Positions 11,905 through 13,515 of a stretch of 40,308 bases of DNA are shown here, piece after piece. Both the position numbers and the translations under genes were made by a program. Under the pieces are notes generated by a model. It was not told the origin of the DNA. It was given only the letters and a program-made list of their open reading frames with translations, and made no database searches. This DNA comes from Betaproteobacteria bacterium (lineage in GTDB: Bacteria; Pseudomonadota; Gammaproteobacteria; Burkholderiales; Casimicrobiaceae): contig PLYG01000275.1 of the NCBI GenBank assembly GCA_003153335.1, forward strand, positions 12,917 through 53,224, read 5' to 3'. How positions within the stretch are numbered: the first letter of the stretch is position 1; the number at the start of each line of letters is the position of its first letter.

Positions 11905-12810
11905 TTATTTCGCTCGCTCCGCTATCAGCCGGGTGACCTCACTCATGTCCAAACCGAACCGGGTCCGATTCTCCGGATATACATCAATCATGAACATTTC
12001 ATCCCATATTCTCTGCCAATCAGTCGCTGGGACCATACCCGACCATTGATTCAATCGGCATTCGACCTCTTCCGGCGAAAAATCGTTTTGTGTAAGCAGC
12101 AACTGTCGAATTCGCTCGTACCGCTGGCGCTGCTCGGCTGGACGCATCGAAACAAGCAGGTGGCTCATCAGTGCCTCGTACGCAAAAAGCGTGAACGACT
12201 CCGCTTCGAACCACACAGCCCCGGCTTGCTGAGAGGCGCTCGCGGCGACATCGTGCAGGTTTGGATTCTCGTCCATCCACCGCCGATAAAACTCCTTGGT
12301 CCCATCCAATAGCTCTCTCGGCATCACGTCTGCATCAGGGCCGACTAGCGCTACTGCCGGTGCCCTGGGACCTTGCGTAAGGGCGCTTATCCCGGCGTAC
12401 CCCTTGCAAGCAGCAACGAAGACAATCACATTGCAGCGCGTCGCGAAATTCAGAGCTTGCAACGGTCCAATGAGTTCGCCCCACGTAAGCAGTTCCGCTC
12501 CCTCTCTTCCATCATCTAGACCGTCACGGCAGCCGTGGGTCTCTAAGTGAAGTACAGGGATCATGCGGTTCTGCTGCGCTTGTCGGGTCGCTCGATGGAT
12601 TGCTTGAAGTACCTCTTGTTTTGTCGTACAAACCGAATGCGCCGACCATCCGGGAAGCCTTGAATTCATCCACTCGTGAAGCAAACGGCCGGTACGGAGA
12701 TCGCTATCCTGCAGCCACTCGATAATCCAAACATTAGTCGCACGAATCTGCGCCACCGTGGGGGGACCGGGGAGGCTACTGATGAGTTTCCGCTCTGCTT
12801 CGGTTAGCAT
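11905..12810 (-). CDS. Minimal CHAT/caspase-like protein (putative His-Cys protease)
   Basis: IPVLHLETHG and NVIVFVAACKG resemble the CHAT/caspase His and Cys motifs and lie about 43 residues apart. No TPR or other recognisable extra domain. It starts 42 nt downstream of the TIR gene. Confidence 0.55.
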   Translation of the reverse strand: MLTEAERKLISSLPGPPTVAQIRATNVWIIEWLQDSDLRTGRLLHEWMNSRLPGWSAHSVCTTKQEVLQAIHRATRQAQQNRMIPVLHLETHGCRDGLDDGREGAELLTWGELIGPLQALNFATRCNVIVFVAACKGYAGISALTQGPRAPAVALVGPDADVMPRELLDGTKEFYRRWMDENPNLHDVAASASQQAGAVWFEAESFTLFAYEALMSHLLVSMRPAEQRQRYERIRQLLLTQNDFSPEEVECRLNQWSGMVPATDWQRIWDEMFMIDVYPENRTRFGLDMSEVTRLIAERAK

Positions 12811-12852
12811 ATGGCATCAATTCTTTCGAAATTGCACTCGCCACGAGCAGTG

Positions 12853-13515
12853 TTAACCACCCAGAGCATATCTTGCGCAGACCTGCTTGAGGTACGAGCG
12901 GGTCTTTGGTTTCAGAGTGTGGCCATGGCTCTTGAGTAGTGGTGGCAGGTAGTCCCGTGCACACAGTGACGCGTGGTGAACTTGTTCGTTATCGGCGGAT
13001 CGCTCAAGAAGTGCCTGAACTTGCGGGTCAGACATTTTCGCAATGTGCGGGAGTATGAGTTGAAAATTTGTCTCAGCCGTTCGATATCCCCTGGAGCTGC
13101 CAATCATATCGATGATCAGATCAATGCCCACCCCGAAGTCGTGCTTAAGGAAGGCGGGTAGAAGGTCGCGAATAGTAATGTCGGCTGGATCTACCCGAAT
13201 CGCCTGGAAGCTGGAAACAAGCCCAGTCGGCATGGTACCGTCTAATGAAAGAGGAACAATTGTCATCTTGGATCGGAAAGCCGCAATGCCTGACTCTTGA
13301 ATACACCAATGCGACTTCACGTAGTTTTCACTAAGCAAGCAGACGAACATATCGGCCCGTCCAATTTCCTCGAGGATTTTGAGACGCCACTCTTCCGAAA
13401 CGTCAATGTCTTCATGAGCAAGGAAGGCTTCGATTCGCACTTTTGCGAGGACACTCTTTATTTGGCCCGCAACCGACTTGTCGGCCGTTTGGTAACTGAG
13501 AAATGCGTAGGGCAT
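12853..13515 (-). CDS. TIR-domain protein with about 110-aa helical C-terminal extension
   Basis: AFLSYQTADKSVAGQI...AFLAHEDIDVSEEW...ADMFVCLLSENYVKSHWCIQESG is a canonical bacterial TIR_2-type pattern, including the conserved Glu. Confidence 0.85.
   Translation of the reverse strand: MPYAFLSYQTADKSVAGQIKSVLAKVRIEAFLAHEDIDVSEEWRLKILEEIGRADMFVCLLSENYVKSHWCIQESGIAAFRSKMTIVPLSLDGTMPTGLVSSFQAIRVDPADITIRDLLPAFLKHDFGVGIDLIIDMIGSSRGYRTAETNFQLILPHIAKMSDPQVQALLERSADNEQVHHASLCARDYLPPLLKSHGHTLKPKTRSYLKQVCARYALGG

What the first reader, a model, noticed from the sequence alone, without database searches (positions are those of the whole stretch)
11905..13515. TIR-domain gene directly upstream of a minimal CHAT/caspase-like His-Cys protein: candidate two-gene immune module
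The 220-aa protein has a canonical bacterial TIR N-terminus (FLSYQTAD..., FVCLLSENYVKSHWCIQESG, including the Glu used by NAD-cleaving TIRs) and an unassigned helical C-terminal half. The next gene starts 42 nt downstream and encodes 301 aa with VLHLETHG and VIVFVAACKG about 43 residues apart. That is the spacing and context of the catalytic His and Cys in caspase/CHAT folds. It has no TPR, NACHT or other sensor domain. TIR enzymes that make nucleotide signals for a partner effector are established in Thoeris-type systems, and TIR plus caspase-like pairings have been described as one variant. I cannot tell from sequence alone whether this compact pair belongs to that family or is new. The C-terminal domain of the TIR protein and the about 80-aa N-terminus of the protease are the obvious candidates for sensing and ligand binding.
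Basis: partly seen in the sequence, partly recalled or inferred. Interest (0 to 1): 0.8.

Follow-up and report, generated by a model that had tools for sequence, protein, structure and literature searches.

The report
TIR gene beside mobile caspase-like cassette
A real TIR gene and a real, highly divergent caspase-fold protease gene lie side by side, but they are two independent single-gene units rather than a conserved two-gene immune system, and the protease belongs to a large unannotated family that travels as a one-gene integron cassette.

Summary
ORFs of 220 aa (TIR_2, 6e-17) and 301 aa lie 42 nt apart on the minus strand.

**The 301-aa protein**
- It has no Pfam, NCBIfam, PADLOC or PDB sequence match.
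- It models confidently (pLDDT 87) as a caspase/CHAT fold. Top hits are SAVED-CHAT 8tl0 and caspases 3/6/7/9.
- H92 and C135 are conserved across a superfamily of about 2,300 clusters.

**The pairing is not conserved**
- None of 109 loci with a caspase-like homolog carries the TIR family.
- None of 24 TIR-family loci carries the caspase-like gene.
- 74 of 80 neighbour proteins are singletons.

**The caspase-like gene is an integron cassette elsewhere**
- attC sites follow the stop codon.
- A GTTRRRY core site sits at a fixed offset upstream (17/59 loci, P≈5e-11).
- Integron-integrase homologs lie upstream in L003 (50% identical to an IntI1 probe) and L023 (40% over a partial match).

**Not type IV Thoeris**
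- Validated E. coli ThsE (Peptidase_C14) shows no profile similarity to this family (hhalign probability 0.07%).
- The window's TIR has no BLASTP match to EcTIR and no Pfam ThsB_TIR hit.

**Best reading**
These are two autonomous, probably defence-type, single-gene modules juxtaposed in the low-GC3 cargo block of an ICE-like element. A lineage-specific TIR-to-protease coupling is not excluded, at about 0.1.

The parts
12853..13515 (-). Gene for a 220-aa TIR protein. The TIR domain is about aa 1-112 (nt 13180-13515), with the catalytic-position Glu E74 at nt 13294-13296. An all-alpha C-terminal domain spans aa 115-218 (nt ~12859-13173).
   Evidence: ORF. Pfam TIR_2 6.3e-17 and TIR 9e-8. E74 is invariant in 108 homologs. 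AF2 model has pLDDT 92.4. Foldseek best hits are SPARTA TIR-APAZ, RPS4 and SARM1. The C-terminal part (aa 131-187) matches PADLOC PD-T7-3 at 1.7e-5.
12811..12852 (-). 42-nt spacer between the two genes. With the TIR stop codon, it corresponds to the 5' leader that cassette-borne homologs carry.
   Evidence: Sequence. No terminator on the minus strand. Anchored comparison with 59 loci.
12853..12857 (-). GTTAA, overlapping the last codon and the TAA stop of the TIR gene. It lies 128 nt upstream of the WIIEW codon. That is the offset at which cassette-borne homologs carry the integron core site GTTRRRY (for example CGTTAAGTGC).
   Evidence: window flagged GTTRR@128. (17/59 loci have it at offsets 120-130; background gives 3.8% per locus; binomial P = 4.6e-11). 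In the window this is a 5/7 match only, so it is suggestive, not proof.
11905..12810 (-). Gene for a 301-aa divergent clan-CD (caspase/CHAT/legumain-like) protein. The caspase-fold core is aa 26-205 (nt 12196-12735). H92 is at nt 12535-12537 and C135 at nt 12406-12408. A C-terminal six-helix domain spans aa 206-301 (nt 11908-12195) and carries the conserved WDxMFMID...PENRxRFG motif.
   Evidence: ORF. No Pfam, PADLOC, NCBIfam or PDB sequence hit. AF2 pLDDT 87.1, pTM 0.82. Foldseek: SAVED-CHAT 8tl0 at 5e-6, plus caspases, CED-3 and separase. Conservation. Superfamily size.
11533..11799 (-). Truncated RadC-like JAB gene (88 aa). It marks the backbone side of the cargo block. A related locus (L031) has TIR followed by RadC, with no caspase-like gene in between.
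   Evidence: Pfam RadC 5e-15, covering profile positions 9-69 of 121. Synteny with L031.
11905..18077 (.). Low-GC3 cargo block (GC3 0.49-0.60, against about 0.78 in the flanking backbone genes). It holds the caspase-like gene, the TIR gene, a trypsin-SLT gene and two orphan ORFs. It lies between RadC and topoisomerase TopB in an ICE-like element.

Best explanation
The two genes are independent single-gene modules. Recombination brought them together in the cargo block of an integrative element. They are not a co-evolved signalling pair.

**The 301-aa protein**
- It belongs to a very large, unannotated family of standalone ~300-aa clan-CD (caspase-fold) proteins.
- It has a conserved His92/Cys135 dyad and a conserved C-terminal helical domain.
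- In many genomes and metagenomes it is a one-gene integron cassette, so it must work without a dedicated partner.
- Inferred: it is a latent cysteine protease. Its own C-terminal domain, or self-assembly, senses an infection cue. It then cleaves cellular or phage proteins in an abortive-infection-type defence, like other integron-borne phage-resistance cassettes.

**The 220-aa protein**
- It belongs to a separate, equally conserved family of standalone TIR plus alpha-domain proteins found on mobile elements across many phyla.
- Inferred: it is a self-contained NAD+-cleaving sensor-effector.

**In this window**
The caspase-like gene sits immediately after the TIR stop codon and is probably co-transcribed with it. 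Any benefit would therefore be additive, as in a mini defence island, rather than sequential signalling.

**Shown versus inferred**
- Shown computationally: fold, catalytic-position conservation, autonomy, cassette structure elsewhere, and lack of co-occurrence.
- Inferred: protease and NADase activity, the defence role, and the trigger.

**How the confidence splits**
The overall figure of 0.6 combines about 0.8 that the pair is not a co-evolved system with about 0.5 that the protease is a defence protein.
For: **Fold and catalytic positions**
-.
- Weak but repeated Peptidase_C13 hits over the His segment in three distant members.

**Autonomy of the caspase-like family**
- At least 234 close homologs and 2,306 clusters at 50% identity. 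Nearly all are 270-325 aa with almost no fusions.
- Immediate upstream genes differ in every context: unknown ORFs, PCTIR-TIR, group II intron RTs, kinase-TPR, AAA_13, RlmJ, or none.
- 74 of 80 neighbour proteins are singletons.
- Each of the 25 listed Pfam families matched only one of 53 neighbours.

**No co-occurrence**
- The TIR-family HMM hits none of 109 caspase-like loci.
- The caspase-family HMM hits none of the four TIR-family loci scanned (L030-L033).
- No adjacent caspase-like-sized ORF appears in the gene tables of the 20 further places of two TIR clusters.
- tblastx against L114, L124 and L126 matched only the TIR gene, plus RadC in L126.

**Cassette nature**
- attC sites lie directly after the stop codon. 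Examples: L048 ACTTAAC...58 nt...GTTAAGT and L007 GCCCAAC...75 nt...GTTGGGC.
- The core site sits at a fixed offset upstream.
- Similarity between loci stops at about -35 and +50-60 nt.
- Integron-integrase homologs lie upstream: L003 at 50% identity to an IntI1 probe (E = 3e-79), and L023 at 40% over 130 residues (E = 6e-20).

**Defence flavour**
- About 7-8 of 53 neighbours match PADLOC models.
- A preprint reports that at least a third of unknown-function cassettes of mobile integrons confer phage resistance. It also reports homologs outside integrons that lack attC (bioRxiv 10.1101/2024.07.02.601719).

**Window context**
- ICE-like backbone with a low-GC3 cargo block.
- L031 has TIR followed by RadC without the caspase-like gene.
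Against: - In the window the genes are co-oriented and 42 nt apart, with no terminator. That is the layout of an operon.
- TIR-type neighbours of unrelated families recur at low frequency beside this protease family: the window, the L003 PCTIR cassette, and one TIR_2 neighbour among 53. This could hint at a loose functional affinity.
- The defence role is inferred only from company and precedent. No activity, trigger or target is known.
- The window itself has no attC or intI. The cassette origin of this particular copy rests on a 5/7 core-site match at the right offset.
- Many metagenome contigs are short, which limits neighbourhood sampling.
Confidence: 0.6

Rival explanations
1. A lineage-specific, newly assembled Thoeris-like pair. 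The TIR senses infection and makes an NAD-derived signal. The C-terminal domain of the caspase-like protein binds that signal and switches on proteolysis. This would be functionally analogous to type IV Thoeris, but built from unrelated families by cassette insertion next to a TIR gene.
For: - Adjacent, co-oriented genes with a 42-nt gap and no terminator.
- Catalytic Glu and Cys positions are conserved.
- Both window-encoded products (P0001, P0121) are on record on 5 contigs each, longest 63,926 bp. This is consistent with the pair persisting in one lineage, but shared contigs were not checked.
Against: - Both families are autonomous everywhere else sampled: 0/109 and 0/24 co-occurrence.
- The protease circulates as a single-gene integron cassette. 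It cannot depend on a dedicated TIR.
- There is no sequence relation to validated EcTIR or EcCaspase.
- The best structural matches of the TIR are NAD-depleting effector TIRs (SPARTA, SARM1), not ThsB.
Confidence: 0.1
2. The caspase-like protein is catalytically active but is not an anti-phage protein. It could be, for example, a cassette-borne toxin or addiction module, a processing protease for a host substrate, or an inter-element competition factor. Its adjacency to the TIR gene would be incidental.
For: - Most integron cassettes have unknown and diverse functions.
- Neighbours include many housekeeping-type genes: RlmJ, CN_hydrolase, methyltransferases.
- There is no hit to any PADLOC model.
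- Distant relatives sit near replication genes on ~110-kb Klebsiella plasmids.
Against: - About 15% of immediate neighbours are defence-related.
- Several contexts are clear defence islands: type I RM plus SLFN in L005, and SIR2/kinase/HEPN in L006.
- No antitoxin-like partner is conserved.
Confidence: 0.25
3. The 301-aa protein is a non-catalytic caspase-fold scaffold or pseudo-protease, and the His/Cys motifs are structural.
For: - No sequence-level match to any curated peptidase family.
- Foldseek TM-scores are modest, about 0.41-0.45 normalised to the query.
Against: - H92-G93 and C135-x-G137 remain at least 90% conserved down to 20% identity, along with E90, N121 and N127.
- They lie at the ends of beta3 and beta4, the canonical clan-CD catalytic positions.
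- Pseudo-enzymes usually lose these residues.
Confidence: 0.05

Closest known systems
Type IV Thoeris (ThsB-type TIR plus ThsE caspase-like protease; Rousset et al., bioRxiv 10.1101/2024.10.24.620036 / Science 2025)
   Same: [quoted passage not shown]
- Catalytic Glu and Cys are present.
- It sits on a mobile element.
   Different: - ThsE is a recognisable Peptidase_C14 (1.2e-17) and EcTIR is a ThsB_TIR (3.9e-18).
- The window proteins hit neither family.
- They show no similarity to them: hhalign probability 0.07%, and no BLAST hit.
- Type IV Thoeris was described as an abundant two-gene operon found across many genomes. Here the pairing is unique to one lineage, and both genes are autonomous elsewhere.
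CHAT / SAVED-CHAT and other clan-CD proteases of bacterial immunity (type III CRISPR SAVED-CHAT, PDB 8tl0; PCaspase)
   Same: - Best structural match (E = 5e-6).
- His-Cys dyad on a caspase-hemoglobinase core.
   Different: - No SAVED or other sensor domain, and no associated CRISPR or CBASS genes.
- No Pfam CHAT hit.
- Only ~300 aa, with a unique C-terminal helical domain.
Bacteriophage-resistance integron cassettes (BRiCs; bioRxiv 10.1101/2024.07.02.601719)
   Same: - A compact gene of unknown function flanked by attC and core sites.
- Homologs also occur outside integrons without attC.
- It is found among other defence genes.
   Different: - No caspase-fold BRiC turned up in that paper ('protease' occurs 0 times) or in a full-text search for integron, cassette and caspase.
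- No phenotype is known for this family.
- The window copy is in an ICE-like element, not an integron.
Standalone or effector TIR NADases (SPARTA TIR-APAZ, SARM1, SpbK, AbTir)
   Same: - TIR fold with the conserved catalytic Glu.
- Best Foldseek hits are SPARTA TIR, RPS4 and SARM1.
- A single-gene family on mobile elements.
   Different: - A distinct ~105-aa all-alpha C-terminal domain. Its only detectable relative is the C-terminus of PADLOC PD-T7-3.
- No Argonaute, ARM or other partner.
Legumain/GPI8 family (Peptidase_C13, clan CD)
   Same: Distant members of the family give weak hits to the His-containing segment of Peptidase_C13 (E = 0.004-0.017, three proteins).
   Different: All hits are below the Pfam threshold. 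The window protein itself gives no hit. The size, the C-terminal domain and the biology all differ.

Membership tests
Type IV Thoeris | TIR gene adjacent to, and co-oriented with, a caspase-like protease gene | tested here: met
   42-nt gap, same strand, no terminator.
Type IV Thoeris | Effector is homologous to ThsE (Peptidase_C14-type caspase-like protein) | tested here: not met
   EcCaspase hits Peptidase_C14 at 1.2e-17. The window protein has no Pfam or NCBIfam hit. hhalign of A1 against EcCaspase gives probability 0.07%.
Type IV Thoeris | TIR is of the ThsB type and related to validated type IV TIRs | tested here: not met
   EcTIR hits ThsB_TIR at 3.9e-18. The window TIR hits only TIR_2 and TIR. 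It has weak PADLOC ThsB scores (1.7e-6) and no BLAST similarity to EcTIR. PsTIR was not compared.
Type IV Thoeris | The TIR-effector pairing is conserved across genomes | tested here: not met
   0/109 caspase-like loci carry the TIR family. No caspase-like gene was found at 24 TIR-family places: HMM on L030-L033, gene tables for the rest, tblastx on three of them. 74/80 neighbour proteins are singletons.
Type IV Thoeris | The TIR makes N7-cADPR, which activates an Arg-specific protease | not testable with these tools
   This requires LC-MS and a protease reporter assay.
Clan CD (caspase-hemoglobinase fold) cysteine peptidases | Caspase-like alpha/beta fold | tested here: met
   AF2 pLDDT 87, pTM 0.82. 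Foldseek PDB: 25 hits at E<=1e-3; all 25 are SAVED-CHAT or caspase/CED-3 chains, with separase next at E = 1.0e-3. BFVD: giant-virus caspase-domain proteins.
Clan CD (caspase-hemoglobinase fold) cysteine peptidases | Catalytic His after beta3 and Cys after beta4, both conserved | tested here: met
   The strand at 85-94 ends in H92-G93. The strand at 129-134 is followed by C135. Both are invariant and at least 90% conserved. No residue-level structural superposition was available, so the positions are assigned from topology.
Clan CD (caspase-hemoglobinase fold) cysteine peptidases | Sequence membership in a curated family (C14, CHAT, C13, C11, C25, C50) | tested here: inconclusive
   None for the window protein. 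A1 profile against PDB sequences gives 0 hits. Three distant members give sub-threshold Peptidase_C13 hits.
Clan CD (caspase-hemoglobinase fold) cysteine peptidases | Peptidase activity | not testable with these tools
   Requires biochemistry.
Integron gene cassette | attC site (R''...R' imperfect palindrome, 57-141 nt) directly 3' of the ORF | tested here: inconclusive
   Met for many family members: L007, L036, L044-L049, L052-L054, L056, L057, L059, L061, L070, L072, L083, L089 and L093. A strict detector scores 9/85 loci against 22/850 shuffles. Not met for the window copy, whose 3' flank folds worse than shuffles (z = +2.2).
Integron gene cassette | Core site GTTRRRY at the 5' boundary | tested here: met
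   17/59 loci have it at offsets 120-130 nt before the WIIEW codon, P = 4.6e-11. The window has GTTAACA (5/7) at offset 128, overlapping the TIR stop codon.
Integron gene cassette | Integron integrase next to the array | tested here: met
   L003: 50% identity to an IntI1 probe over 278 aa, E = 2.6e-79, divergent and upstream. L023: 40% over 130 aa. No IntI-like hit in the window.
TIR-domain NAD+-cleaving enzymes | TIR fold with a conserved catalytic Glu | tested here: met
   Pfam TIR_2. AF2 pLDDT 92. Foldseek: SPARTA, RPS4, SARM1. E74 is 100% conserved in 108 sequences, within SxWCxQESG. That this Glu is the catalytic one follows from established knowledge of the WCxxE motif in plant and bacterial TIRs.
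TIR-domain NAD+-cleaving enzymes | NADase or cyclase activity | not testable with these tools
   Requires an enzyme assay or LC-MS.

The most novel reading that the evidence does not exclude
The 301-aa protein would represent a large, so far unannotated family (about 2,300 clusters at 50% identity) of minimal, self-contained caspase-fold immune proteases. Each would combine sensor and executioner in one ~300-aa protein, and the family would spread between phyla as one-gene integron cassettes. That would make it a new single-gene defence class, and the smallest autonomous 'bacterial caspase'. A less likely but more striking variant: in this lineage, insertion of the cassette behind a TIR gene has created a nascent TIR-to-caspase signalling pair, caught at its origin.
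Probability: 0.35. Interest if true: 0.75.

Novelty: new variant of a known kind. Interest (0 to 1): 0.5.

Why it matters
Caspase-like proteases are emerging as executioners in bacterial immunity, in type IV Thoeris, type III CRISPR and gasdermin systems. In those characterised systems they act downstream of a separate sensor or signal generator.

A caspase-fold family that Pfam, NCBIfam and PADLOC all miss, that is always standalone, and that is mobilised as a single-gene integron cassette would show that the fold can act as an autonomous module. It would add a sizeable family to the set of cassettes of unknown function.

For annotation practice, this case is a caution. A textbook-looking 'TIR plus caspase' gene pair can arise from juxtaposition of two independent mobile genes. 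Operon-like spacing alone is not evidence of a system.

Tried and rejected
1. **Sequence-level identification of the 301-aa protein.** Pfam, NCBIfam, PADLOC, phmmer against PDB and an hmmsearch profile against PDB all gave nothing. PHROGs gave only one weak hit of unknown function (3.4e-4).
2. **Hidden TIR relatives upstream.** The unannotated 217-218-aa upstream ORFs in L001 and L011 are not relatives of the window TIR. The 304-aa ORF after RadC in L031 is not a caspase-like homolog.
3. **Degenerate attC after the window copy.** I guessed at a 64-nt GAGGTCACC...GTTGACTTC element. The region folds worse than shuffles (z = +2.2), so this was rejected. The window's cassette ancestry rests only on the 5' core-site offset.
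4. **Strict attC detector.** My detector (at least 6/7 R''/R' complementarity and at least 14 cross pairs) was too stringent: 9/85 loci against 2.6% of shuffles. Many sites obvious by eye fail it. The fixed-offset core-site statistic is the more robust measure.
5. **Getting a ThsE sequence.** The stored supplement truncates the cloned sequences. I recovered the E. coli operon by probing E. coli genomes with the EcTIR fragment. PsCaspase itself was not compared.
6. **Integron features for the TIR family.** No attC-like flanks were seen in 7 loci.
7. **The three ~130-nt intergenic repeats.** No Rfam family matched at gathering threshold or at E<=1. Covariation support is weak with only three copies. 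They are absent from all fetched loci.
8. **GC3 comparison.** TIR 0.55 and caspase-like 0.60 are both typical of the cargo block, so this does not discriminate a common from a separate origin.
9. **Locating the one TIR_2 neighbour.** A regex search could not locate it among the metagenome loci.
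Full report
**Observation**

The window carries two co-oriented minus-strand ORFs, 12853-13515 (220 aa) and 11905-12810 (301 aa). They are separated by 42 nt, with no terminator-like structure on that strand. H92 and C135 are 43 residues apart. 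The public gene call for the second ORF starts at M83 (P0001, 219 aa), but homologs align from residue 2. The 301-aa reading is therefore the right one.

**The TIR protein**

- Pfam gives TIR_2 at 6.3e-17 and TIR at 9e-8.
- NCBIfam and PADLOC give only weak, sub-threshold hits to Thoeris and retron TIR models.
- It belongs to a tight family of ~218-aa proteins (275 hits, 50-73% identity). The family spans Burkholderiales, Chlorobium, Ignavibacteria, Bacteroidota, Methylococcaceae and Caulobacter.
- E74, in the motif SxWCxQESG, is invariant in 108 sequences, and the C-terminal half is also conserved. From established knowledge, this Glu corresponds to the catalytic Glu of the WCxxE motif of NAD-cleaving TIRs.
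- The AF2 model (pLDDT 92.4) shows a TIR domain at about aa 1-112 followed by a seven-helix domain.
- The best PDB matches are SPARTA TIR-APAZ, RPS4 TIR and SARM1. ThsB is not among the 50 hits listed.
- Residues 131-187 match the C-terminus of PADLOC PD-T7-3 at 1.7e-5.

**The 301-aa protein**

- It has no hit in Pfam, PADLOC or NCBIfam, nor in PDB sequences, whether searched as a single sequence or as a 32-sequence profile.
- It has at least 234 close homologs, all ~305 aa and all annotated 'hypothetical'.
- An exhaustive profile search finds 2,306 clusters at 50% identity with E<=1e-3. Nearly all are 270-325 aa, with almost no fusions.
- The AF2 model is confident (pLDDT 87.1, pTM 0.82). Foldseek finds the SAVED-CHAT filament 8tl0 (5e-6), caspases 3, 6, 7 and 9, CED-3 and separase. 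In the viral library it finds giant-virus caspase-domain proteins.
- The order of secondary-structure elements is the caspase-hemoglobinase order. H92-G93 ends beta3 (aa 85-94), and C135 follows beta4 (aa 129-134).
- H92, G93, C135 and G137 are invariant among close homologs. Together with E90, N121, N127 and N281 they stay at least 90% conserved at 20-50% identity. H88 does not.
- Three distant members give weak but concordant Peptidase_C13 hits over the His segment.
- So the fold claim and the dyad claim stand.
- The N-terminal 80 residues are part of the fold. The accessory domain is C-terminal: six helices at aa 206-301, carrying the strongly conserved WDxMFMID...PENRxRFG motif.

**Is it a pair?**

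Contexts of caspase-like homologs differ in every case. Upstream genes include:
- an unannotated 217-aa ORF (L001);
- a CAP12/PCTIR-TIR protein (L003);
- group II intron reverse transcriptases (L004, L008);
- a kinase-TPR protein (L006);
- an AAA_13 ATPase (L010);
- RlmJ (L019);
- or nothing on the same strand (L005).

I fetched 22 loci from reference genomes and 80 from metagenomes, then tested co-occurrence both ways:
- An HMM of the window's TIR family hits none of the 109 caspase-like loci.
- The caspase-family HMM hits none of the four TIR-family loci scanned (L030-L033).
- The 20 further places of two TIR clusters show no adjacent caspase-like-sized ORF in their gene tables. tblastx on three of them found none either.
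- All-against-all BLAST of 80 immediate neighbours leaves 74 singletons.
- In a Pfam census of 53 neighbours, each of the 25 listed families matched a single protein. Only one has a TIR_2 domain.
- TIR-family genes sit in their own varied contexts: DUF2188-TIR-DUF6998, next to RadC/DUF6573, or among housekeeping genes.
- L031 has TIR followed by RadC, as in the window, but without the caspase-like gene in between.

**What the caspase-like gene is elsewhere**

- Similarity between otherwise unrelated loci stops about 35 nt before the start codon and 50-60 nt after the stop.
- Directly after the stop there are imperfect palindromes with integron attC features. Often the TAA stop lies inside R''. 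Examples: L048 ACTTAAC...58 nt...GTTAAGT, L007 GCCCAAC...75 nt...GTTGGGC, and L061 GGCTAAC...114 nt...GTTAGCG.
- Upstream, a GTTRRRY core site (typically CGTTAAGTGC) lies 120-130 nt before the conserved WIIEW codon in 17 of 59 loci. The background expectation is 3.8% per locus (binomial P = 4.6e-11). It is often preceded by the attC hairpin of the previous cassette.
- L003 contains an integron-integrase homolog. It is 50% identical to an IntI1 probe over 278 aa (E = 2.6e-79) and lies divergently upstream. In L003 the PCTIR gene and the caspase-like gene are separate cassettes. L023 also has an IntI-like fragment.
- Group II intron RTs immediately upstream in L004 and L008 fit the known habit of some group II introns of targeting attC sites (my own knowledge).
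- The family is thus a single-gene integron cassette in many places, so it must function without a dedicated partner.

**The window copy**

- There is no intI in the window and no attC hairpin after the gene.
- The window does have GTTAA at offset 128, exactly where cassettes have their core site. It overlaps the last codon and the stop of the TIR gene. This suggests that the caspase-like unit, with its 5' leader, was joined right at the end of the TIR ORF.
- The pair lies in a low-GC3 cargo block, 11905-18077 (GC3 0.49-0.60, against about 0.78 in the backbone). The block sits between a truncated RadC and TopB, in an ICE-like element that also carries TnpB, a SLOG protein and DUF5131.

**Comparison with type IV Thoeris**

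[quoted passage not shown] The protease is activated by N7-cADPR and cleaves after Arg.
- I recovered the validated E. coli operon by probing with the EcTIR fragment from their Table S2.
- EcTIR (133 aa) is a ThsB_TIR at 3.9e-18. EcCaspase (321 aa) is a Peptidase_C14 at 1.2e-17.
- The profile of our family shows no similarity to EcCaspase (hhalign probability 0.07%). The two TIRs share no BLAST similarity.
- The resemblance is one of architecture, not of family membership, and the defining conserved pairing is absent.

**Most likely mechanism**

*Shown computationally:*
- Two autonomous, strongly conserved single-gene families.
- One is a TIR with an intact catalytic position and its own alpha-helical domain.
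- The other is a clan-CD fold with an intact His/Cys dyad and its own helical domain, mobilised as an integron cassette.
- About 15% of its immediate neighbours match defence models. Several contexts are defence islands.

*Inferred:*
- Each is a self-contained sensor-effector.
- The protease is latent until its C-terminal domain or its oligomerisation responds to infection. It then degrades proteins.
- The TIR depletes or converts NAD+.

Precedent comes from integron cassettes of unknown function. At least a third of those tested conferred phage resistance, and their homologs outside integrons lack attC (bioRxiv 10.1101/2024.07.02.601719).

My probability estimates are:
- about 0.8 that the pair is not a co-evolved system;
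- about 0.5 that the protease is a defence protein;
- about 0.1 that this particular juxtaposition has become a functional TIR-to-protease relay.

**Novelty**

- I found no description of caspase-fold integron cassettes in the searchable literature.
- The family is absent from the Pfam, NCBIfam and PADLOC copies searched.
- It is best classed as a new variant of a known kind: a clan-CD protease in a mobile, defence-like context.
- The proposed two-gene system is not supported.

Noticed in passing
window 13588-13725, 15158-15296, 16000-16140 (+ orientation): Three direct copies of a ~130-nt G+C-rich intergenic repeat. The core is CCATSGCCGCWCCCCGACTG (3 matches against 0.05 expected). They separate the cargo genes TIR/caspase-like, trypsin-SLT, orf170 and orf596. 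There is no Rfam match. A shared fold is possible, but covariation from three copies is weak. The repeat is absent from all 134 loci held at the time of the search.
   Followed up: partly
window 9201-9218 / 18609-18626 and 10894-10917 / 18653-18676: An exact 18-nt repeat, and a 24-nt promoter-like repeat (TATGCCCNNNNNNGGGTATAATGC). They lie upstream of the 120-aa ORF at 10895 and of the TopB gene at 18753. They may be shared regulatory sites of the element's backbone.
   Followed up: no
window 13813-14979 (-): A 388-aa ORF that fuses a trypsin-like serine protease (Trypsin_2, 6e-28) with a lytic transglycosylase SLT domain. The protease part also matches PADLOC RT-Protease_XI (1.8e-12). It lies next to the TIR gene in the same low-GC3 cargo block.
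   Followed up: no
window 15387-15899 (+) and 16287-18077 (+): Two orphan cargo ORFs (170 aa and 596 aa) with no hit in Pfam, NCBIfam, PADLOC or PHROGs. Each is flanked by the ~130-nt repeat.
   Followed up: no
window 7422-9164 (+): A 580-aa protein with a GHKL ATPase domain (HATPase_c_3). It has weak similarity to the sacsin N-terminal domain and to BbrUII/HgiDII-type restriction enzymes. It lies just outside the cargo block.
   Followed up: no
window 1376-2614 (+); 4981-5868 (+); 5977-6588 (+): An IS605-family TnpB (OrfB_IS605 plus Cas12f1-like TNB domain), a metallophosphoesterase, and a protein with a circularly permuted YpsA SLOG domain. They lie upstream in the same element.
   Followed up: no
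L003 460-1700 (-) and 4754-6969 (+): A chromosomal integron on a 6.1-Mb contig. It has an IntI homolog (50% identical to IntI1, apparently split into two ORFs) and IS91-type insertions. A CAP12/PCTIR-TIR cassette is followed by the caspase-like cassette as a separate cassette.
   Followed up: partly
L004 1113-2432 and L008 3347-4876: Group II intron reverse transcriptases (RVT_1 plus GIIM) lie immediately upstream of the caspase-like gene in two unrelated loci. This is consistent with attC-targeting group II introns.
   Followed up: no
L135 3477-4364 (K. pneumoniae plasmid pKP35_2, NZ_CP132962.1) and about 15 similar ~110-kb non-mobilizable Klebsiella plasmids: Distant relatives (27% identity) of the caspase-like family occur as standalone ~295-aa ORFs. 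Some are annotated 'HMG-box domain-containing protein', which looks like a misannotation.
   Followed up: partly
window 11533-11799 (-): The RadC-like JAB gene is truncated. It is 88 aa and covers profile positions 9-69 of 121. It lies directly downstream of the caspase-like gene, which suggests rearrangement at this junction.
   Followed up: no
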